From: Candidatus Doudnabacteria bacterium RIFCSPHIGHO2_02_FULL_42_25
GTDB lineage: Bacteria; Patescibacteriota; Doudnabacteria; UBA920; O2-02-FULL-48-8
NCBI GenBank assembly: GCA_001777665.1
Contig: MFEQ01000004.1
Span: 129,331-193,330 of the forward strand
DNA length: 64,000 bases
Direction of reading: 5' to 3'
The notes under the pieces are model-generated. The model made no database searches and was not told the origin of the DNA. It worked only from the letters and a program-made list of their open reading frames with translations. Within the stretch, counting starts at the first letter, position 1. Each line of letters opens with the position of its first letter. Below, one piece after another: positions 16,568 through 63,194 of this stretch. The position numbers and the translations under genes are program-made.

Positions 16568-17313
16568 AGAGTAACAGAATTCTTATCTTTCTTATCATCC
16601 CTATCGTCCTTATCATCCCTATCATTCTTATTGTTCTTATCATTCCTACTTAACCTATTATCCTTCAAAAATTGCTGCAACCATTTTTCTCCTTCATCAA
16701 TTTGTTTTTGTCTCTGTTTAATTTTGCTAGCTACCGTTACCTCGTCTGATTGGCTATAAGATTTTTCAACAGCACGTAGTTGTTGATCGACCAAAAAAGC
16801 AGCCTGATGAATCAAGCAAATCACACAATTCGCCGCTTTTTCCCGGTCATTTAAATAGGATAAATAAGGATAATAAGTCGGATAGGTCCGATAGGTCGGG
16901 GAGTTATCATCCTTATTGTCCCTATCATCTCTATTGTTCCTATTATCCCTATCATTCTTATCTTTCCTATCATCCTTATTATTCTTATTGTCCTTATAAT
17001 ATACAATCTTTCTCACTGCTATAGATTCGGGATGATTTTTGTCCCACTGATTCAAATTTCTCTGCCTCAAAAAGTCCTCATAATCCCCTAAAAGTTCGCC
17101 CAAGGAAAATCTTGATGCGCCAAGCAAATTAATTTTAATTTTTTCTGAGGTTTTATTTTCTGATGCCTCGACAATATTTTGTTTCCCGTCGCGAGCAGCG
17201 CCAATCATTTGGGTGGTAATTTTATGGTTGGTAATATATTTTTGACAAAATTCCACAGTGTAATCATAAACAATTGTTGCTTGCTGATAAGATTTTAAAT
17301 CTTTATAGGACAT
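16564..17313 (-). CDS. Four-helix-bundle protein (TIGR02436-like) with long low-complexity K/D/N/R extensions
   Basis: N-terminal 90 aa resemble the four-helix-bundle family (MSYKDLKSYQQA...QMIGAARDGKQNIVEASE...INLLGASRFSLGELLGDYEDF). Two K/D/N/R tracts are encoded by the 9-nt repeats. Confidence 0.5.
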   Translation of the reverse strand: MSYKDLKSYQQATIVYDYTVEFCQKYITNHKITTQMIGAARDGKQNIVEASENKTSEKIKINLLGASRFSLGELLGDYEDFLRQRNLNQWDKNHPESIAVRKIVYYKDNKNNKDDRKDKNDRDNRNNRDDRDNKDDNSPTYRTYPTYYPYLSYLNDREKAANCVICLIHQAAFLVDQQLRAVEKSYSQSDEVTVASKIKQRQKQIDEGEKWLQQFLKDNRLSRNDKNNKNDRDDKDDRDDKKDKNSVTL

Positions 17314-26318: not shown

Positions 26319-28347
26319 GGATTTGTAACAATTCCTCTGGAATGGCTTTTAAGAATCTAGAAGGAATAGAAATATTTCTGCTCCCAAATTGTTTGCGGGT
26401 CTGGGCGCATACAAGAAACAGCTGTTGCTTCGCTCTCGTAATCCCCACATAAGTCAGTCTCACTTCTTCGGCAATGTCTTTTGGATCCATCATTGATCTG
26501 GCATGTGGCAAGATCCCCTCTTCCAGTCCGACCAAAAATACTGTCTCGAATTCCAGACCTTTGGCCTGGTGCAGGGTCATCAGTGTTACTTTCGGAGAAT
26601 GTAAATCCATTTCATCTACTGATGTCATGAGCGCTACCTCTTCTAAAAATTTAGTCAGGCCTTCCTTCCAATTCATTTTACGGAAACTTCCAGCGACATT
26701 GAAAAGTTCCTGAATGTTTTCCCAACGTGTTTCTCCCTCTTCCGAACCATCACGCAGAAATGCTTCGTACCCAGTCAGCTTTAAAACTTGACGCAAGATA
26801 TCCAGTAGGTCTGCACTCTCATCTAAATTTTGAATCAAATTAACAGTTTCAAAAAAATGTTTAACAGATGGTTTGAGGTCCATCAATTTCGCTAATTCTT
26901 TCTCATCCTGTTCAATCAAAGCTTCCTTCAGCAGATCAAAACTTTTCGGCCCTATTCCCCGAGGTGGTACATTAATCACTCGTTTCAAACTTACCAAATC
27001 ATTTGGATTAATCAAAAGTCTTAGGTAACTTAAAATATCCTTGATTTCTTTGCGTTCATAGAACTTTAATCCGCCAACTATTTGATAAGGGATAGAGGCT
27101 TCAATCATAACTTCTTCCAAAACCCGGGATTGGGCATGAGTTCGATAAAGTATCGCGATATTGTTCAAACGCTGTCGATTTTTGAGTTTTGGGAGAATTT
27201 TTGACCGGGCACCTGCCCGCCACGCAAGCCAGCTTGCTGGCGTTGCAGGCGGGTGACGCATAATTCGGCCAAGAATCGTGTCGTCCGTATCCTCTATCTC
27301 ATATTGCAGCTCATTCGATTTACCATCCTGGATCTCGATAATTTTGGAAGCAACAAAATAGGCTTCTGCTAATTCATCCGGGGCAGAATAAAACATCGGA
27401 ATCATGCCTTTTTCATTTTCGGTCCACAAAGTTTTTTTGTGCTGTCTCGGACTAAGTTCAATAACTTTCTGGGCGATGGATAAAATCGGTTGAGTCGATC
27501 GGTAATTTTGCTCTAACCGAATAATTTTGGTTTCCGGATAATCTTTTTCAAAATCTAAAATATTTTGGAGGTTCGCCCCTCGAAAACCATAAATAGCTTG
27601 CGCATCGTCCCCCACCACAAAAATATTCTGATGATTGGCAACCAACATTTTCGTGAAAATATACTGGACGTGATTCGTATCCTGATATTCGTCGACCAAA
27701 ACATACTGCCAAAGATTTTGGTATTTCAAAAGCACGTCATCATGTTCTTGAAAAATTCTCACTGGTAACACCAAAAGATCTCCGAAATCGACGGCATTGT
27801 TTTTTCGAAGTTCAGTCTGATACATTTCGTAAACTTTTTTTACATTCAAATCAAAAGTAGTTTGGGTTGGTAAATCATCCGGCTCTTCTAAATTATTTTT
27901 GGCTCGATCTATAAGATGCGCAAACAATGATGGCTTAAATTTCGTCGGATCAATTCTTAAACGTAACAAAATATCTTTCAGCAAACTTTCTTGGTCATCA
28001 CTGTCATAAATGAGGAAATCCCTATCCAAACCAACTAAGGCACATTCTTGCCTTAGAATTCGGACACCTATTGAATGAAAAGTTCCCATCGTAGGGAGTT
28101 CCGATTTTCCGATCAATCCGATTATCCGAGTTTTCATTTCCCCAGCCGCCTTATTAGTAAAAGTTACAGCTAAAATACTATGTGGTTTTAACCCCAATTT
28201 TTTAATCAAATATACTATGCGCATAGTCAAAGCCCTAGTTTTACCACTGCCCGCACCAGCCAAAATTAACACCGGCCCTAGCGGCGCCTTTACAGCTTCT
28301 AATTGAGCTTGATTTAAACCGATTTGTTCAGCAGAATTTTTAGTCAT
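26305..28347 (-). CDS. uvrD: ATP-dependent DNA helicase UvrD/PcrA, carrying an in-frame GC-rich insertion
   Basis: Walker A AGAGSGKT, DEYQDT, motif IV ILYRTHAQSR, motif VI. The extra segment MRHPPATPASWLAWRAGARS is encoded by the element at 27205-27254. Confidence 0.9.
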   Translation of the reverse strand: MTKNSAEQIGLNQAQLEAVKAPLGPVLILAGAGSGKTRALTMRIVYLIKKLGLKPHSILAVTFTNKAAGEMKTRIIGLIGKSELPTMGTFHSIGVRILRQECALVGLDRDFLIYDSDDQESLLKDILLRLRIDPTKFKPSLFAHLIDRAKNNLEEPDDLPTQTTFDLNVKKVYEMYQTELRKNNAVDFGDLLVLPVRIFQEHDDVLLKYQNLWQYVLVDEYQDTNHVQYIFTKMLVANHQNIFVVGDDAQAIYGFRGANLQNILDFEKDYPETKIIRLEQNYRSTQPILSIAQKVIELSPRQHKKTLWTENEKGMIPMFYSAPDELAEAYFVASKIIEIQDGKSNELQYEIEDTDDTILGRIMRHPPATPASWLAWRAGARSKILPKLKNRQRLNNIAILYRTHAQSRVLEEVMIEASIPYQIVGGLKFYERKEIKDILSYLRLLINPNDLVSLKRVINVPPRGIGPKSFDLLKEALIEQDEKELAKLMDLKPSVKHFFETVNLIQNLDESADLLDILRQVLKLTGYEAFLRDGSEEGETRWENIQELFNVAGSFRKMNWKEGLTKFLEEVALMTSVDEMDLHSPKVTLMTLHQAKGLEFETVFLVGLEEGILPHARSMMDPKDIAEEVRLTYVGITRAKQQLFLVCAQTRKQFGSRNISIPSRFLKAIPEELLQIHEDF
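27205..27254. repeat. GC-rich palindromic element, family 1, in frame inside uvrD
   Basis: Its reverse complement shares 32 identical nt with the 24667 copy. The CDS reads through it without a stop. Confidence 0.7.
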
Positions 28348-40224: not shown

Positions 40225-40228
40225 CGTT

Positions 40229-40283
40229 AAACGGCAGCGCAACGCGTATCGGTAAACGTGAGACGATACGCGCGGCGCCGACG
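40229..40283. repeat. GC-rich palindromic element, family 2, intergenic copy (infC-rpmI)
   Basis: aacggcagcgcaacgcgtatcggtaaacgtgagacgatacgcgcggcgccgacg. Related to the in-frame copy inside rsmA. Confidence 0.6.
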
Positions 40284-40306
40284 AATAACGACTAACGCAT
40301 AAATAC

Positions 40307-44621: not shown

Positions 44622-45962
44622 TCAAGTAACATGTGTAAACGCAATTGCATCGGGAGCAAAGTCAGAAGTTTTCGTCAGTAATCCAGAGCGAATAGCAAAT
44701 TCTCCGTATTTATTATTAATGGAATCCAGGACTGGGGTTAATGTCGCATTTCTATCGACAAAGAGAGACAACTGCTTGACTTTTGGAGATAAATATGTGA
44801 ATCCTACGGCGATATGCATAACTTCACTAGGAAACTTCCATGCATCCCAAACTTTCAATGATTGTTCATACAACTCGAATCCGGTTTCTATAAATCCCTT
44901 TATTTTTCTGGATTTATGAAAATAACTACCCCGCCCGCCATCGCAAGCCTGATTACAAACATGCCCCGTGCTCAGGCGTTGCGGGCAGGCATCAGTCAAC
45001 GATACCGATAAATAAATACCAGAAGCCATCAACCCCTCTCTCCGCATCCTGCGCGATGCTTTTTCAGCTAATCGCAGTATAACTGATTTTAATTTCTCTT
45101 TGTCAGTGGTGCGAAAGTTCAAAACCCAAGAATTCCCAAAGGATTTCTGAGATGTCTCTTTCAGATTGTCCCTCTCCCCTTGCGGGAGAGGGTGGCGCGA
45201 AGCGCCGGGTGAGGGGTAACCCAAGAACCCACCCTCATCTGTCACTAACGTGACATCTTCTCCCGTCAAGGGAGAAGATTCTATAGAATCAATCTCTAAC
45301 CCATTTACGCGCTGCCATATATCAAATCCGGGTTTGCCAAACAAACTAATTAAATTTTGCACGGGATAATCCAACAACTGCAATGGGCTGGTGATATTCA
45401 ATTTTGCCAATCTTTTTTGCCAGCCTCGCGCAATACCCCATAAATCTGAAAGCTGCTTGTGTTTATAAATTTCTGGTAACTGATCGCGCCAGATCACGGT
45501 GAGTCCATCGGGTTTTTGCATGGCTCCGGCTAATTTAGCCAGGAATTTATTTTCTCCTATCCCGATGGAGCAAGTCAACCATTCCCCTATCTCTGATTTA
45601 ATCCGTCTTTTAATTTCAGCAGCTATCAACAATCCTTTGTCATCTGGAATTTCTAAAAAAGATTCATCAATACTATAAGGCTCGACTGACGGACTATAAT
45701 CCCGAAAAATTCTATTCATCTGATCATTCACTTCTCGATATTTATCGGGATCTGACCTAGTTACGATAATATTTGGATAAATTCTTTTGGCTTTATAAAT
45801 CGAGGTCCCTGTCCCTATCCCCAGTTTCTTGGCTTCTTTCGAAGTTCCGATCAGACAACTGGTTTCATGCAAAGAATTTCCCACACCTAAAGGACGGCCT
45901 CGCCAGAGCGGATTTGCTTGCTGCTCTACTGAAGCAAAAAAAGAATTCATATCGATAAGCAT
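44622..45962 (-). CDS. dinB: Y-family DNA polymerase IV (DinB-like) with two in-frame GC-rich insertions
   Basis: MLIDMNSFFASVEQ start, Y-family palm/fingers motifs, little-finger domain. Extra segments LTDACPQRLSTGHVCNQACDGGRGSY and PSPGASRHPLPQGERDNLKE are encoded by GC-rich palindromes. The ORF track's longer N-terminal extension is judged spurious. Confidence 0.8.
   Translation of the reverse strand: MLIDMNSFFASVEQQANPLWRGRPLGVGNSLHETSCLIGTSKEAKKLGIGTGTSIYKAKRIYPNIIVTRSDPDKYREVNDQMNRIFRDYSPSVEPYSIDESFLEIPDDKGLLIAAEIKRRIKSEIGEWLTCSIGIGENKFLAKLAGAMQKPDGLTVIWRDQLPEIYKHKQLSDLWGIARGWQKRLAKLNITSPLQLLDYPVQNLISLFGKPGFDIWQRVNGLEIDSIESSPLTGEDVTLVTDEGGFLGYPSPGASRHPLPQGERDNLKETSQKSFGNSWVLNFRTTDKEKLKSVILRLAEKASRRMRREGLMASGIYLSVSLTDACPQRLSTGHVCNQACDGGRGSYFHKSRKIKGFIETGFELYEQSLKVWDAWKFPSEVMHIAVGFTYLSPKVKQLSLFVDRNATLTPVLDSINNKYGEFAIRSGLLTKTSDFAPDAIAFTHVT
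44929..44992. repeat. GC-rich palindromic element (family 1-related) in frame inside dinB
   Basis: ccccgcccgccatcgcaagcctg...caggcgttgcgggcagg. The arm matches the reverse complement of the family-1 arm. Confidence 0.6.
45170..45222. repeat. Second GC-rich hairpin element in frame inside dinB (a different family)
   Basis: ccctctcccc-ttgc-gggagaggg and ggcgcgaagcgcc hairpins, then ggtgaggggtaaccc. Confidence 0.55.
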
Positions 45963-45975
45963 GGTGCGAGGAAGT

Positions 45976-46221
45976 CTAGTCGGCATAGGATTCGAGTAGT
46001 GTCCAAGATAAATTATCCGAGTTAAATTGGAGTTTAAAGTAATTAGTGTTATCGGAAACTGCGAAAAAATAGTACTTACTCCGACCTTCGAAGTTGGACC
46101 ACGATAAATTAATCTTTTTGATAGGAATTTCCCGGCCATGCCAAAGAAACTTGAGTGGCAAAGTTTGATTCTCGCCGAATTTAACGATTACTTCGATTGG
46201 TTCATTAATTTCTTCCAACAT
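45976..46221 (-). CDS. Small protein (81 aa) 14 nt upstream of dinB, possibly YolD-like
   Basis: ORF with a convincing hydrophobic core. Its position upstream of a Y-family polymerase is as in the B. subtilis yqjX-yqjW pair (inference). Confidence 0.35.
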   Translation of the reverse strand: MLEEINEPIEVIVKFGENQTLPLKFLWHGREIPIKKINLSWSNFEGRSKYYFFAVSDNTNYFKLQFNSDNLSWTLLESYAD

Positions 46222-47140: not shown

Positions 47141-47254
47141 TTCCTCCCCTGGAACAGGGGAGGTTAGGTGGGGTAGATACTAGAATTAGATAGCAGTTTT
47201 TATTCTCAAACCGTACCTCCCCTAACCCCTCCTATCCTAGGAGGGGAATAACTG
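47141..47254. repeat. GC-rich multi-hairpin element directly 3' of msrB
   Basis: cctcccctg-gaa-caggggagg and cccctccta-tc-ctaggagggg perfect stems, plus ggaggttaggtgggg with its near-complement. Confidence 0.55.
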
Positions 47255-47258
47255 CGGA

Positions 47259-47681
47259 CTAACCCTTCTTCAGCATTAAACACGCAGAATTAATACAGTA
47301 CCTTTTGCCTCCCTGATCCTTAGGGCCGTCGTCGAAGACGTGACCCAAATGCGAGCCACAGTTTTTACAAGTGACTTCGATCCGATGCACCTGCCCGCCA
47401 ATGCCTGCGGCATCAGGCGTTGGCAGGCGGGTCCCATGATCATCATCATCGCGAAGTTCGATATTTTTTAAATTAGCTGGCTCGGTAAATGATGGCCAGC
47501 CAGTTCCTGAATCAAATTTCGTATCAGATGAAAACAACTCATTATTACACACAGCGCAAACATACATACCTTTATCTTTGGTATGCACGTACTGGCCGCT
47601 GAAAGGAGCTTCAGTCCCCTTCTTCCTCATAATCTCGTACTGTTCTGGCGTGAGTTTTTTCTTTAGTTCTTCATCATTCAT
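47259..47681 (-). CDS. msrB: Peptide-methionine (R)-S-oxide reductase MsrB with an in-frame GC-rich insertion
   Basis: CxxC...CxxC zinc site and catalytic GHVF/RYCINS motifs. The extra segment TRLPTPDAAGIGGQV is encoded by the element at 47388-47433. Confidence 0.85.
   Translation of the reverse strand: MNDEELKKKLTPEQYEIMRKKGTEAPFSGQYVHTKDKGMYVCAVCNNELFSSDTKFDSGTGWPSFTEPANLKNIELRDDDDHGTRLPTPDAAGIGGQVHRIEVTCKNCGSHLGHVFDDGPKDQGGKRYCINSACLMLKKG
47388..47433. repeat. GC-rich palindromic element, family 1, in frame inside msrB
   Basis: cacctgcccgccaatgcctgcggcatcaggcgttggcaggcgggtccc. Confidence 0.65.
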
Positions 47682-63018: not shown

Positions 63019-63106
63019 TAGCTTTCGCTAATTTTTTCTTTGCTAGCCACTAATTTTCCCAAATCTATACATATGTGAAAATTTGGGAAATTGCCTTTCT
63101 CGCTTC

Positions 63107-63127
63107 CCGCCTGCCGGCGAGGCAGGC
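63107..63127. repeat. Palindrome family 3 variant GCCTGCC-GGCGA-GGCAGGC
   Basis: Read directly. Confidence 0.5.
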
Positions 63128-63194
63128 AACCCGTTCGAATCCTACGCTCAAAGAAATAGAAAAAATCCCGACCGAATGGTCAGGAATTTTTCTT

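What the first reader, a model, noticed from the sequence alone, without database searches (positions are those of the whole stretch)
44929..45222. dinB carries two different GC-rich hairpin elements in frame within its little-finger domain
The Y-family polymerase gene is read through two unrelated GC-rich palindromes. One is 44929-44992, related to family 1. The other is 45170-45222, with perfect stems CCCTCTCCCC/GGGAGAGGG and GGCGC/GCGCC. Together they add about 45 aa (LTDACPQRLSTGHVCNQACDGGRGSY and PSPGASRHPLPQGERDNLKE) inside the DNA-binding little-finger region. Two independent insertions in one gene suggest either relaxed constraint or a preferred target.
Basis: partly seen in the sequence, partly recalled or inferred. 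Interest (0 to 1): 0.55.

Follow-up and report, generated by a model that had tools for sequence, protein, structure and literature searches.

The report
Selfish hairpin repeats translated inside dinB
The translesion polymerase gene of this candidate-phyla-radiation bacterium is read straight through two unrelated GC-rich hairpin repeats, and the same repeats sit in frame in many other housekeeping genes of such bacteria, a Rickettsia-like phenomenon I found no description of for this group in four literature searches.

Summary
dinB (44622-45986, minus strand; Candidatus Doudnabacteria) is intact and carries two in-frame GC-rich inserts that most orthologs lack.

Insert A (44931-44990, 60 nt, 20 aa) belongs to a 42-nt hairpin family, F1.
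- F1 has 4 copies in this window against 0 expected by chance. Other copies are in frame in uvrD and msrB.
- The canonical 42-mer recurs exactly in at least 36 metagenome contigs. At least 25 of 54 distinct contexts lie inside long ORFs.
- Insert A maps to the beta2-beta3 loop of the little finger and occurs only in this species.

Insert B is twice as long as reported (about 45170-45279, about 38 aa). It lies in the thumb-little-finger linker, not inside the little finger.
- It is an inverted pair of BoxC/PIT/TMECO-like triplex-motif units.
- The same composite element occurs in Proteobacteria, Acidobacteriota and other phyla.
- Its DNA is far more conserved than the rest of dinB.
- That linker holds inserts in 29 of 107 orthologs.

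Best reading: non-autonomous selfish hairpin repeats, tolerated because they preserve the frame, lack stop codons and sit in loops. I found no sign of relaxed constraint on dinB. This is a known kind of event (Rickettsia palindromic elements), here in a new host clade with new families.

The parts
44622..45986 (-). dinB (DNA polymerase IV, Y family) CDS, 454 aa. The ORF stays open up to 46139, but orthologs and NCBI records start at MPTRL (45986).
   Evidence: ORF list; Pfam IMS and IMS_C; homologs named DNA polymerase IV from Candidatus Doudnabacteria; identical NCBI proteins OGE73774.1 and others; Foldseek and phmmer matches to solved DinB/Dpo4 structures.
44931..44990 (-). Element A: a 60-nt variant of the F1 hairpin family, translated as ACPQRLSTGHVCNQACDGGR (20 aa). 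It is inserted between D and G of the beta2-beta3 turn of the little finger. The hairpin termini CCTGCCCGC...GGCGGGCGGG span 44930-44989.
   Evidence: Codon alignment with three orthologs shows a clean 60-nt gap. Only the window's own species has an insert here among 107 proteins. F1 pattern match. Fold -36.3 kcal/mol, z -3.5. AF2 pLDDT is below 50 at residues 337-353, between strands 319-330 and 356-366.
45170..45216 (+). Element B, unit 1 (reads on the plus strand): a BoxC/TMECO-like motif, CCCTCTCCC-CTTGC-GGGAGAGGG-[TGGCGCGAAGCGCC mini hairpin]-GGGTGAGGGG. On the coding strand it is translated as ...PSPGASRHPLPQGER.
   Evidence: Sequence and inverted repeats. TMECO pattern from Holder et al. 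2015 (PMC4666352). The 32-mer CCCTCACCCGGCGCTTCGCGCCACCCTCTCCC is found in more than 120 genome loci of other phyla. Pair covariation supports the stems.
45217..45227 (-). Element B, variable spacer between the two inverted units.
   Evidence: Alignment A6 shows this as the variable-length part of the composite element.
45228..45279 (-). Element B, unit 2 (reads on the minus, coding strand): TCTTCTCCC-TTGAC-GGGAGAAGA-[TGTCACGTTAGTGACA mini hairpin]-GATGAGGGTGGG. It is translated as SSPLTGEDVTLVTDEGG.
   Evidence: Inverted repeats I5 and the GTCAC/GTGAC stem. The unit is colinear with Acidobacteriota copies (CCTTCTCCC..GGGAGAAGG-TGCCCGAAGGGCG-GATGAGGGG), and the mini hairpin covaries.
27212..27253 (-). 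F1 copy (42 nt) read in frame inside uvrD/pcrA (26305-28347, minus strand); peptide HPPATPASWLAWRAG.
   Evidence: Pfam finds UvrD-helicase, and UvrD_C is split into two stretches.
47390..47431 (-). F1 copy (42 nt) read in frame inside msrB (47259-47681, minus strand). It adds 14 aa (TRLPTPDAAGIGGQ) that three syntenic orthologs lack.
   Evidence: Pfam SelR.
24672..24713 (+). F1 copy, the canonical 42-mer. It is intergenic, or at the extreme 5' end of ORF 23738-24691.
   Evidence: It is identical to the 42-mer found in at least 36 metagenome contigs.
47143..47176 (+). A separate BoxC/TMECO-like unit (CCTCCCC-TGGAACA-GGGGAGG-TTA-GGTGGGG), intergenic and just downstream of msrB.
   Evidence: Regex scan. 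The TTA second loop matches TMECO type A.

Best explanation
Two unrelated families of small, non-autonomous, GC-rich hairpin repeats have landed inside the dinB coding sequence of a Candidatus Doudnabacteria genome. Both are translated as extra surface segments.

Element A is a 60-nt variant of a 42-nt imperfect palindrome (F1). It was inserted recently, because it is found only in this species. It sits at the tip of the beta2-beta3 hairpin of the little finger.

Element B is a composite of about 110 nt made of two inverted BoxC/PIT/TMECO-like units. It sits in the thumb-little-finger linker. It is either older than this species or was inserted more than once.

The inserts persist for three reasons:
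- they keep the reading frame (60 nt for A, about 114 nt net for B);
- they contain no stop codon;
- they lie in a loop and a flexible linker, outside the catalytic core.

The sequence of each element is kept by constraint at the nucleotide and hairpin level. That constraint could come from the element's own propagation or from recognition by some protein. It does not come from selection on the encoded peptide.

Shown here: the inserts are insertions, the families have many copies, many copies elsewhere are read in frame, the inserts map to loop positions, and B is conserved at the DNA level. Inferred: the inserts are translated, they are near-neutral for DinB, and the mobility mechanism. My guess for the mechanism is a single-strand hairpin route like that of REP elements or IS200/IS605. 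No transposase was identified.
For: Insertion status:
- The alignment of 21 orthologs and the codon alignment show clean gaps at both sites.

F1 is a dispersed repeat:
- It has 4 copies in the window against 0 expected.
- Three of them are in frame, in dinB, uvrD and msrB. msrB orthologs lack the 14 aa.
36 carry the exact 42-mer, in 54 distinct AT-rich contexts.
- At least 25 of those 54 lie inside long read-through ORFs.
- In 10 of 10 ORFs tested, a Pfam domain of a housekeeping enzyme spans the element.
- An 86%-identical RF1 ortholog lacks the element.
- The 42-mer has no stop codon in any of the six frames.

B is a member of a cross-phylum element family:
- More than 120 genome loci match.
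- It is colinear with Acidobacteriota copies over its full length.
- Compensatory pairs support the stems. In hairpin 4 the middle pair is C-G 88, T-A 2, A-T 2. In hairpin 5 the outer pair is A-T 49, C-G 37, G-C 4.
- It matches the three 9-nt blocks of the published TMECO pattern.

Nucleotide-level constraint on B:
- Identity among four genomes is 80-92% in B against 64-70% in the rest of dinB.
- At third codon positions it is 77-94% against 38-50%.
- The raised identity is confined to the element.

Translation:
- All four length differences among B copies are multiples of 3.

Location:
- The only long AF2 low-confidence segments inside the protein are 241-280 (B) and 337-353 (A). The core is modelled with pLDDT mostly above 90.

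Integrity:
- The protein is identical on 18 contigs, and all invariant residues are retained.
Against: - There is no direct evidence of translation. I had no proteome or RNA data.
- No transposase or other mobilising enzyme was identified. F1 has no target-site duplication and no target consensus, so the mobility mechanism is conjecture.
- In about 483 kb of AT-rich, CPR-like sequence, strict BoxC-like units were found only in dinB, and one relaxed unit at 47143. B-type elements are therefore rare in these genomes, yet they recur in dinB. L004 has two in the same gene. A purely random-insertion model does not predict this.
- Whether B at the linker reflects one ancient insertion with losses or several insertions is not resolved.
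- Two database variants of this protein differ exactly at B's 3' unit: one frameshift (P0124) and one cluster of 16 substitutions (P0001). These may be assembly errors, or they may reflect real instability.
Confidence: 0.8

Rival explanations
1. The elements are functional cis-acting structures rather than passengers. The hairpin or triplex-forming DNA or RNA inside dinB might modulate its expression, stall transcription or replication, create a local mutation hot spot, or serve as a recognition site. Examples of recognition would be a DNA-uptake or recombination signal, or the site of a hairpin-binding enzyme. In that case selection maintains them at this position.
For: - B is far more conserved at the DNA level than the enzyme core, including at third codon positions.
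- Its stems are kept by compensatory changes across phyla.
- B-type units recur in dinB in several lineages, twice in L004, but are rare elsewhere in the CPR-like DNA sampled.
- The published TMECO motif forms a triplex in vitro and is associated with local genome instability (PMC4666352).
- Database variants of this very protein differ precisely at B's 3' unit.
- The F1 42-mer is identical across Doudnabacteria and Levybacteria-like contexts.
Against: - Conservation of the element's sequence is equally expected for a selfish element that must keep its own recognition features.
- Most DinB orthologs, including close ones such as P0004, lack any insert.
- At least three different peptide families occupy the same linker. 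This argues for tolerance rather than a specific function.
- F1 sits in unrelated genes and in intergenic DNA with no common context.
- Earlier work found no promoter, terminator or polymerase-blocking activity of PIT elements in vivo, as summarised in PMC4666352.
Confidence: 0.12
2. The elements are not translated. They would be removed from the mRNA (intron-like), skipped by the ribosome (programmed bypass, like the GC-rich 'byp' elements of yeast mitochondria), or excised from the protein.
For: - Both elements form very stable hairpins in the mRNA: -34.7 kcal/mol for A on the coding strand, and z -7 for B.
- Some F1 copies lie inside tRNA-like 5' fragments.
- From my own knowledge: CPR bacteria are known for insertions in their rRNA genes.
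Against: - Every genic copy examined preserves the frame and lacks stop codons.
- All indels among B copies are multiples of 3. A removed segment would not need this.
- No Rfam family, intron or otherwise, matches the region.
- No tRNA is recovered when the F1 element is deleted in silico.
- The inserts are only 20 and 38 aa long, far shorter than any self-splicing protein domain. No motif search for such domains was run.
Confidence: 0.04
3. dinB is decaying in this lineage under relaxed constraint, and the inserts are early steps of pseudogenisation. Alternatively, the inserts are assembly artefacts.
For: - There are two insertions in one non-essential gene.
- One ENA assembly of the same protein cluster is frameshifted inside element B (P0124). 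One read-level assembly has 16 clustered substitutions there (P0001).
Against: - The ORF is intact at 454 aa and identical on 18 contigs and in at least 5 NCBI records.
- All 75 invariant alignment columns are retained.
- The AF2 core is confident, and the fold matches solved DinB structures.
- B is present in independent assemblies of four other species.
- The same F1 element is tolerated in essential genes.
Confidence: 0.04

Closest known systems
Rickettsia palindromic elements (RPEs; Ogata et al. 2000, Science 290:347, as summarised in PMC10969869)
   Same: - Both are short palindromic repeats with no coding capacity of their own.
- Both are dispersed in a small AT-rich genome of a host-dependent bacterium.
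- Both are frequently inserted in frame into unrelated housekeeping genes and are read through as extra peptide segments.
- Both are placed where the fold tolerates them.
   Different: - The host clade differs: CPR/Patescibacteria (Doudnabacteria, Levybacteria-like) rather than Rickettsia.
- F1 is much shorter (42-60 nt against about 100-150 bp) and is GC-rich.
- The F1 42-mer is identical across distantly related CPR hosts.
- No sequence relationship to the RPE families was tested.
- F1 is read in all six frames, so it does not encode one conserved peptide.
BoxC / PIT / TMECO intrastrand-triplex motif repeats (Holder et al. 2015, PMC4666352)
   Same: - Element B unit 1 has the three diagnostic 9-nt blocks (CCCTCTCCC, GGGAGAGGG, GGGTGAGGG) and a 5-nt first loop.
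- The units occur as an inverted pair, as described for five E. coli loci.
- The family is widespread and highly conserved across bacteria.
- A canonical-looking unit with a TTA second loop lies at 47143 in the window.
   Different: - The second loop is a 14-nt mini hairpin (GGCGC-GAA-GCGCC) instead of 3 nt. This variant is the one shared with Alphaproteobacteria and Acidobacteriota.
- The E. coli copies are always intergenic, whereas this one is translated inside a gene.
- BLAST finds no significant similarity to E. coli genomes.
- Triplex formation by this variant is untested.
REP elements mobilised by RAYT transposases, and prokaryotic MITEs
   Same: Both classes are small, non-autonomous, hairpin-forming repeats present in many copies. 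Like REP elements, F1 has no target-site duplication.
   Different: - F1 carries no GTAG or CGTC tag (the criterion of PMC3733652; checked by inspection).
- REP elements are extragenic by definition.
- MITEs have target-site duplications and are usually longer than 50 bp.
- No RAYT or IS partner was looked for beyond this window.
GC-rich coding hairpins in organelle genomes (for example the coding palindromes of Nematomorpha mitochondria, PMC6649704, and the palindromic repeats of Volvox organelles, PMC2670323; both seen only as titles and abstracts)
   Same: GC-rich or palindromic selfish repeats invade protein-coding genes of AT-rich reduced genomes and are read through.
   Different: Those are organelle genomes with unrelated sequences. 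I did not read these papers beyond the abstracts.

Membership tests
Y-family DNA polymerase IV (DinB) | IMS (palm, fingers, thumb) and IMS_C (little finger) domains | tested here: met
   Pfam PF00817 E 1e-37 and PF11799 E 1e-10. phmmer matches solved DNA polymerase IV chains down to E 1e-49.
Y-family DNA polymerase IV (DinB) | Catalytic acidic residues and conserved motifs (D in DMNSFF, D-E in SIDE) | tested here: met
   D12 is nearly invariant, and D107 and E108 are invariant, in the 60-sequence alignment that includes the window protein.
Y-family DNA polymerase IV (DinB) | Right-hand fold with a little finger of beta-alpha-beta-beta-alpha-beta topology | tested here: met
   The AF2 model has pLDDT 79.5, with the secondary-structure order E283-288, H296-316, E319-330, E356-366, H369-381, E389-401. 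Foldseek matches DinB, Dpo4 and MsDpo4 at E 1e-26 to 1e-34.
Y-family DNA polymerase IV (DinB) | Translesion polymerase activity | not testable with these tools
   This needs biochemistry.
BoxC / PIT / TMECO triplex-motif repeat | Three blocks CCCTCNCCC, GGGNGAGGG, GGGNGAGGG in that order | tested here: met
   45170-45178, 45184-45192 and 45207-45215 on the plus strand, compared with the pattern quoted.
BoxC / PIT / TMECO triplex-motif repeat | First loop of 3-6 nt and second loop of 3 nt | tested here: not met
   The first loop is 5 nt, which fits. The second loop is 14 nt and contains a GGCGC/GCGCC mini hairpin. The element is therefore a variant, not a strict TMECO.
BoxC / PIT / TMECO triplex-motif repeat | Intergenic location | tested here: not met
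   The element lies inside the dinB reading frame. The E. coli copies are always intergenic.
BoxC / PIT / TMECO triplex-motif repeat | Occurrence as closely spaced inverted pairs | tested here: met
   Units at 45170-45216 (plus strand) and 45228-45279 (minus strand) are separated by 11 nt.
BoxC / PIT / TMECO triplex-motif repeat | Formation of an intrastrand triplex | not testable with these tools
   This needs CD or NMR on the oligonucleotide.
Rickettsia palindromic elements (works-like comparison) | Palindromic repeat inserted in frame in unrelated protein genes | tested here: met
   F1 is in frame in dinB, uvrD and msrB. In 10 of 10 metagenome ORFs tested, a Pfam domain spans the element.
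Rickettsia palindromic elements (works-like comparison) | Sequence homology to RPE families 1-10 and a Rickettsia host | not tested
   The host is a CPR bacterium. No RPE sequences were available for comparison. I claim an analogy only, not membership.
MITE | Target-site duplication flanking terminal inverted repeats | tested here: not met
   Among 51 F1a contexts, direct flank repeats occur no more often than chance: 4 observed against 4.0 expected for k=2, and none for k=4 or more.
REP (RAYT-associated) | GTAG or CGTC tetranucleotide tag, extragenic location, and a RAYT gene in the genome | tested here: inconclusive
   The F1a 42-mer shows no GTAG or CGTC tag on inspection, and many copies are intragenic. 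The presence of a RAYT gene in the host genomes was not tested.

The most novel reading that the evidence does not exclude
The hairpins may be more than tolerated junk. F1 is a 42-mer that stays identical across CPR hosts, and B is a BoxC-like composite shared across phyla. Both could be kept by nucleotide-level selection because a conserved cellular or mobile-element machinery recognises them. Candidates are a hairpin-specific HUH enzyme or a DNA-uptake or recombination system. In that reading the copy in the dinB linker acts as a structure-forming cis element that makes this mutator-polymerase gene a regulated or hypervariable locus.
Probability: 0.12. Interest if true: 0.8.

Novelty: new variant of a known kind. 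Interest (0 to 1): 0.6.

Why it matters
In-frame 'coding palindromes' have been treated as a peculiarity of Rickettsia. This case suggests the same phenomenon is pervasive in the candidate phyla radiation (CPR).

- A single 42-nt hairpin is found letter for letter inside enzymes such as RF1, MetRS, GatA/GatB, CarA, Fpg, UvrD, MsrB and DinB, in hosts as far apart as Doudnabacteria and Levybacteria-like bacteria.
- A BoxC-like element known only from intergenic DNA of Proteobacteria is translated inside dinB here.

This has three consequences:
1. **Annotation.** These 14-40 aa GC-rich inserts inflate and fragment CPR protein families and domain hits. UvrD_C, for example, is split into two stretches.
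2. **Mobile-element biology.** F1 is small, has no target-site duplication, is stop-free in all six frames, and appears to move horizontally, with no known mobilising enzyme.
3. **Protein evolution.** The inserts mark the loops and linkers that tolerate additions.

For dinB itself the practical conclusion is modest. The gene looks functional, and the inserts are probably passengers.

Tried and rejected
- **Rfam.** No family matched in or near dinB at E up to 1. Only tRNAs and the tmRNA were found in the window. Rfam on 15 loci carrying B-like elements gave nothing that overlapped the elements.
- **BLAST of element B against 5,426 E. coli genomes.** No match. The link to BoxC rests on the motif pattern, not on alignment significance.
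- **F1 interrupting tRNA genes.** ARAGORN finds no tRNA across any copy, even after deleting the element with offsets of +/-3 nt. The tRNA-like flanks are 5' fragments only. An exhaustive deletion scan of the GC island at 63083-63155 found no hidden tRNA.
- **Recombination tract as the cause of B's high identity between genomes.** Rejected, because the raised identity stops at the element borders.
- **Target-site duplication or a target motif for F1.** None found.
- **DNA for P0001 and P0024.** Neither could be retrieved. The clustered substitutions in P0001 could therefore not be examined at the nucleotide level. A DGR-like pattern of adenine-specific changes is not evident from the inferred codon changes, where only 7 of 16 are at A.
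- **Literature.** Four searches found nothing on such elements in CPR or Patescibacteria, nor on the F1 sequence or its peptides. Absence from this library is not proof of novelty.
Full report
**What is there**

The window is AT-rich, with about 40% GC. The ORF at 44622-46139 on the minus strand is a Y-family DNA polymerase. Pfam finds IMS at residues 62-204 and IMS_C at 332-459.
- Its closest database relatives are annotated DNA polymerase IV of Candidatus Doudnabacteria, a CPR/Patescibacteria lineage.
- The exact protein, starting at MPTRL (45986, 454 aa), is in NCBI as OGE73774.1 and four further accessions. It was seen on 18 contigs.
- The AF2 model (pLDDT 79.5) matches solved DinB, Dpo4 and MsDpo4 structures.
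- Typical orthologs are 388-400 aa long, so this protein is about 58 aa too long.

**Checking the observation**

Both GC-rich islands exist where stated.
- GC reaches 0.60 at 44925-44974 and 0.70 at 45175-45224.
- The stems CCCTCTCCC/GGGAGAGGG and GGCGC/GCGCC are perfect.
- Folding energies exceed dinucleotide shuffles: z is -3.5 for A and -4.7 for the 61-nt piece of B.
- The gene reads through both islands without a stop or frameshift.

Three corrections are needed.
1. B continues upstream on the coding strand through three more hairpins, to about 45279. The 121-nt stretch folds at -63.7 kcal/mol, z -7.0. Relative to orthologs the insert is about 38 aa, not 20.
2. B lies between the end of the thumb (about residue 237) and little-finger strand beta1 (283-288). 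That is the thumb-little-finger linker, not the little-finger domain.
3. Only A is inside the little finger. It sits between strands 319-330 and 356-366, where every other ortholog has a two-residue D-G turn.

**Element A and family F1**

A codon alignment with three syntenic orthologs shows a clean 60-nt gap (44931-44990) between GAT (D) and GGN (G). Among 107 full-length homologs, only this species has anything at that position.

The termini CCTGCCCGC...GGCGGGCGGG define a family.
- The pattern CCTGCCCGC-N20-50-GCRGGCRGG hits four times in the window and never in 100 shuffles.
- The other three copies are 42 nt long. One is intergenic (24672).
- One is in frame in uvrD/pcrA (27212, peptide HPPATPASWLAWRAG).
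- One is in frame in msrB (47390), where three orthologs lack exactly the 14 aa.

- 36 loci carry the identical 42-mer CCTGCCCGCAACGCCAGCAAGCTGGCTTGCGTGGCGGGCGGG.
- There are 54 distinct flanking contexts, and their flanks are AT-rich (GC 0.32-0.50).
- At least 25 copies lie deep inside long ORFs that read through them.
- Ten such ORFs were scanned with Pfam. All ten are ordinary enzymes with a domain spanning the element: purine nucleoside phosphorylase, RF1, GatB, CarA, GatA, cysteine desulfurase, MetRS, Fpg, Sua5 and a P-type ATPase.
- The RF1 host is Levybacteria-like. An 86%-identical ortholog lacks the segment.

Further properties of the 42-mer:
- It has no stop codon in any of six frames, and all six readings occur in genes.
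- There is no target-site duplication and no target consensus.
- Genic copies show an orientation bias of 21:4 (binomial p = 9e-4). I cannot explain this.

**Element B**

Its 3' half on the coding strand reads on the plus strand as CCCTCTCCC-CTTGC-GGGAGAGGG-TGGCGCGAAGCGCC-GGGTGAGGGG.
- These are the three blocks of the BoxC/PIT/'TMECO' intrastrand-triplex motif of Holder et al. 2015 (CCCTCNCCC-N3-6-GGGNGAGGG-N3-GGGNGAGGG).
- The difference is that the 3-nt second loop is replaced by a 14-nt mini hairpin.
- The other half is a second, more degenerate unit in inverted orientation: TCTTCTCCC-TTGAC-GGGAGAAGA-[GTCAC-GTTA-GTGAC]-GATGAGGGTGGG. This mirrors the inverted pairs described in E. coli.

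- The hits are in Bradyrhizobium, Devosia, Kaistia, Acidobacteriota, Gammaproteobacteria, Bacteroidota, Nitrospira and others.
- Several genomes have multiple copies, for example three contigs of one Acidobacteriota MAG.
- Acidobacteriota copies are colinear with the dinB element over its whole length (alignment A6).

The stems covary.
- The mini hairpin is GTCAC/GTGAC or GTCCCGCC/GGCGGGAC in Doudnabacteria, and GCCC/GGGC, GGCC/GGCC or GCCGC/GCGGC elsewhere.
- The middle pair of hairpin 4 is C-G in 88 copies, T-A in 2 and A-T in 2.
- The outer pair of hairpin 5 is A-T in 49, C-G in 37 and G-C in 4, out of 94 copies.

No Rfam family matches, and BLAST against E. coli genomes finds nothing. I therefore file B as a BoxC/TMECO-like variant, not a strict member.

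**B within the DinB family**

The same element sits at the same linker position in P0002, P0003, P0007 and P0024. P0001 also carries it, but that is a read-level variant of this same protein. L004 (the P0007 locus) has a second, diverged copy in its finger domain and an F1 copy near its C-terminus.

On a rough neighbour-joining tree the B carriers fall in at least three separate places. P0004, which lacks B, lies inside the clade formed by the window protein, P0002 and P0003. Either there were several insertions or several precise losses. I cannot tell which.

B's DNA is much better conserved than the gene around it.
- Identity is 80-92% in B against 64-70% elsewhere.
- At third codon positions it is 77-94% against 38-50%.
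- The excess stops at the element's borders, which argues against a recombination tract.
- All length differences among the four DNA copies (-6, -30, +6 and -3 nt) are multiples of three. This is what translation through the element predicts.

**dinB as a target**

Of 107 proteins, 29 have an insert of at least 8 aa at the linker (core columns 240-243).
- These belong to at least three recognisable peptide families: the B type, a second BoxC-like 'PSPRGRG...SPPKGE' type, and an 'FDGSAARIG' type.
- They are scattered over the tree.
- Other recurrent sites are after core column 38, after SIDESFLEL (116-119), and at columns 159, 328 and 353-356.
- The site of insert A is unique to this species.

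A flexible linker that tolerates anything explains the data equally well.

'Relaxed constraint' is not supported. The protein keeps all invariant columns, the core is confidently modelled, and the same F1 element sits inside essential genes.

**Mechanism**

Shown:
- the two segments are insertions;
- both families have many dispersed copies;
- the hairpins are under nucleotide-level constraint;
- the inserts preserve the frame and map to a loop and a linker.

Inferred: the elements are selfish, non-autonomous repeats that are translated and are near-neutral for DinB. The lack of a target-site duplication and the hairpin form suggest a single-strand, REP- or IS200/IS605-like mode of insertion. 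No enzyme was identified, so this step is conjecture.

Rivals:
- A cis-acting function as a structure or recognition site (about 0.12).
- Removal at the RNA, translation or protein level (about 0.04).
- Gene decay or artefact (about 0.04).

**Comparison with known systems and novelty**

The behaviour is that of the Rickettsia palindromic elements (PMC10969869). The sequence class of B is BoxC/PIT/TMECO (PMC4666352). New here are:
- the host clade;
- the very short F1 family, conserved across CPR hosts;
- a BoxC-like element inside a coding sequence.

Four literature searches found no description of this in CPR bacteria, but the library is incomplete. I rate it a new variant of a known kind, with interest 0.6.

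**Caveats**
- The metagenome contigs carry no taxonomy. Only one host was placed, by homology.
- The 'inside an ORF' calls rest on ORF length, except for the ten that were Pfam-checked.
- The tree is a quick distance tree.
- Two database variants of this protein differ exactly at B's 3' unit: P0124 is frameshifted and P0001 has 16 clustered substitutions. I could not distinguish assembly error from real instability.

Noticed in passing
window 25982-26057 and 40225-40300: A second GC-rich palindromic family ('F2', about 76 nt, 75% identity between copies; core GCGCGTATCGGTAA..CGATACGCG). One copy appears to be read in frame inside rsmA/ksgA (25440-26318, minus strand; peptide ...MRNTVNGSATRIVGRLPIRAAQTN...). 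The other is intergenic, between infC and rpmI.
   Followed up: partly
L158, L214, L146/L235, L131 (metagenome loci), at the F1a element: Several F1a copies sit inside sequences that look like the 5' half of a tRNA gene, with the element in the D-loop (for example GGGGCGTTAGCTCAGTGG[element]TAGAGCAG...). No complete tRNA is detectable, even after deleting the element in silico. In L135 the element abuts the 5' end of a complete tRNA-Lys-like gene.
   Followed up: partly
54 F1a contexts in the window and L125-L241: Genic F1a copies show a strong orientation bias relative to the host gene (21 against 4, binomial p about 9e-4). The commoner orientation gives the weaker mRNA hairpin (-25.1 against -29.7 kcal/mol). 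The dinB copy has the stronger orientation.
   Followed up: partly
window 45140-45215 (DinB residues 310-338): Two other database versions of this same protein differ only here. P0001 (a read-level assembly of SRR3989344) has 16 amino-acid substitutions, all within 29 residues, and these reach into the conserved KSFGxSW motif. P0124 (ENA) frameshifts right after PLPQ. This could be sequencing or assembly error at a strong structure, or real instability at the triplex motif.
   Followed up: partly
window 47143-47176: A canonical-looking BoxC/TMECO type-A unit (CCTCCCC-TGGAACA-GGGGAGG-TTA-GGTGGGG) lies in the intergenic region just downstream of msrB.
   Followed up: no
window 45976-46221 (minus strand): An 81-aa ORF with a weak DUF6504 match overlaps the dinB start. 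It is conserved in the same position, between msrB and dinB, in three related genomes (L001-L003).
   Followed up: no
window 16569-17623: Long arrays of a degenerate 9-nt tandem repeat (CTTATCATC-like, three blocks), presumably encoding a tripeptide-repeat protein on the minus strand.
   Followed up: no
L002 1547-6004 and L003 114-4594: In two relatives, the contigs carrying the dinB orthologs also carry a heme-copper oxidase gene set (COX1, COX3, COX4_pro, COX_ARM, UbiA).
   Followed up: no
L004 240-1826 (P0007 dinB): One dinB ortholog carries three separate repeat insertions: a B element in the linker, a second diverged B-like element in the finger domain, and an F1-like hairpin plus other hairpins near the C-terminus. 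Together they bring it to 528 aa.
   Followed up: partly
L136 (PrmC/HemK-like ORF): The same ORF that carries an F1a copy also contains a further GC-rich peptide, ISPLTKGGRGG. This resembles the '...GGRGSY' insert ends seen in DinB orthologs P0011 and P0092, and hints at yet another element family.
   Followed up: no
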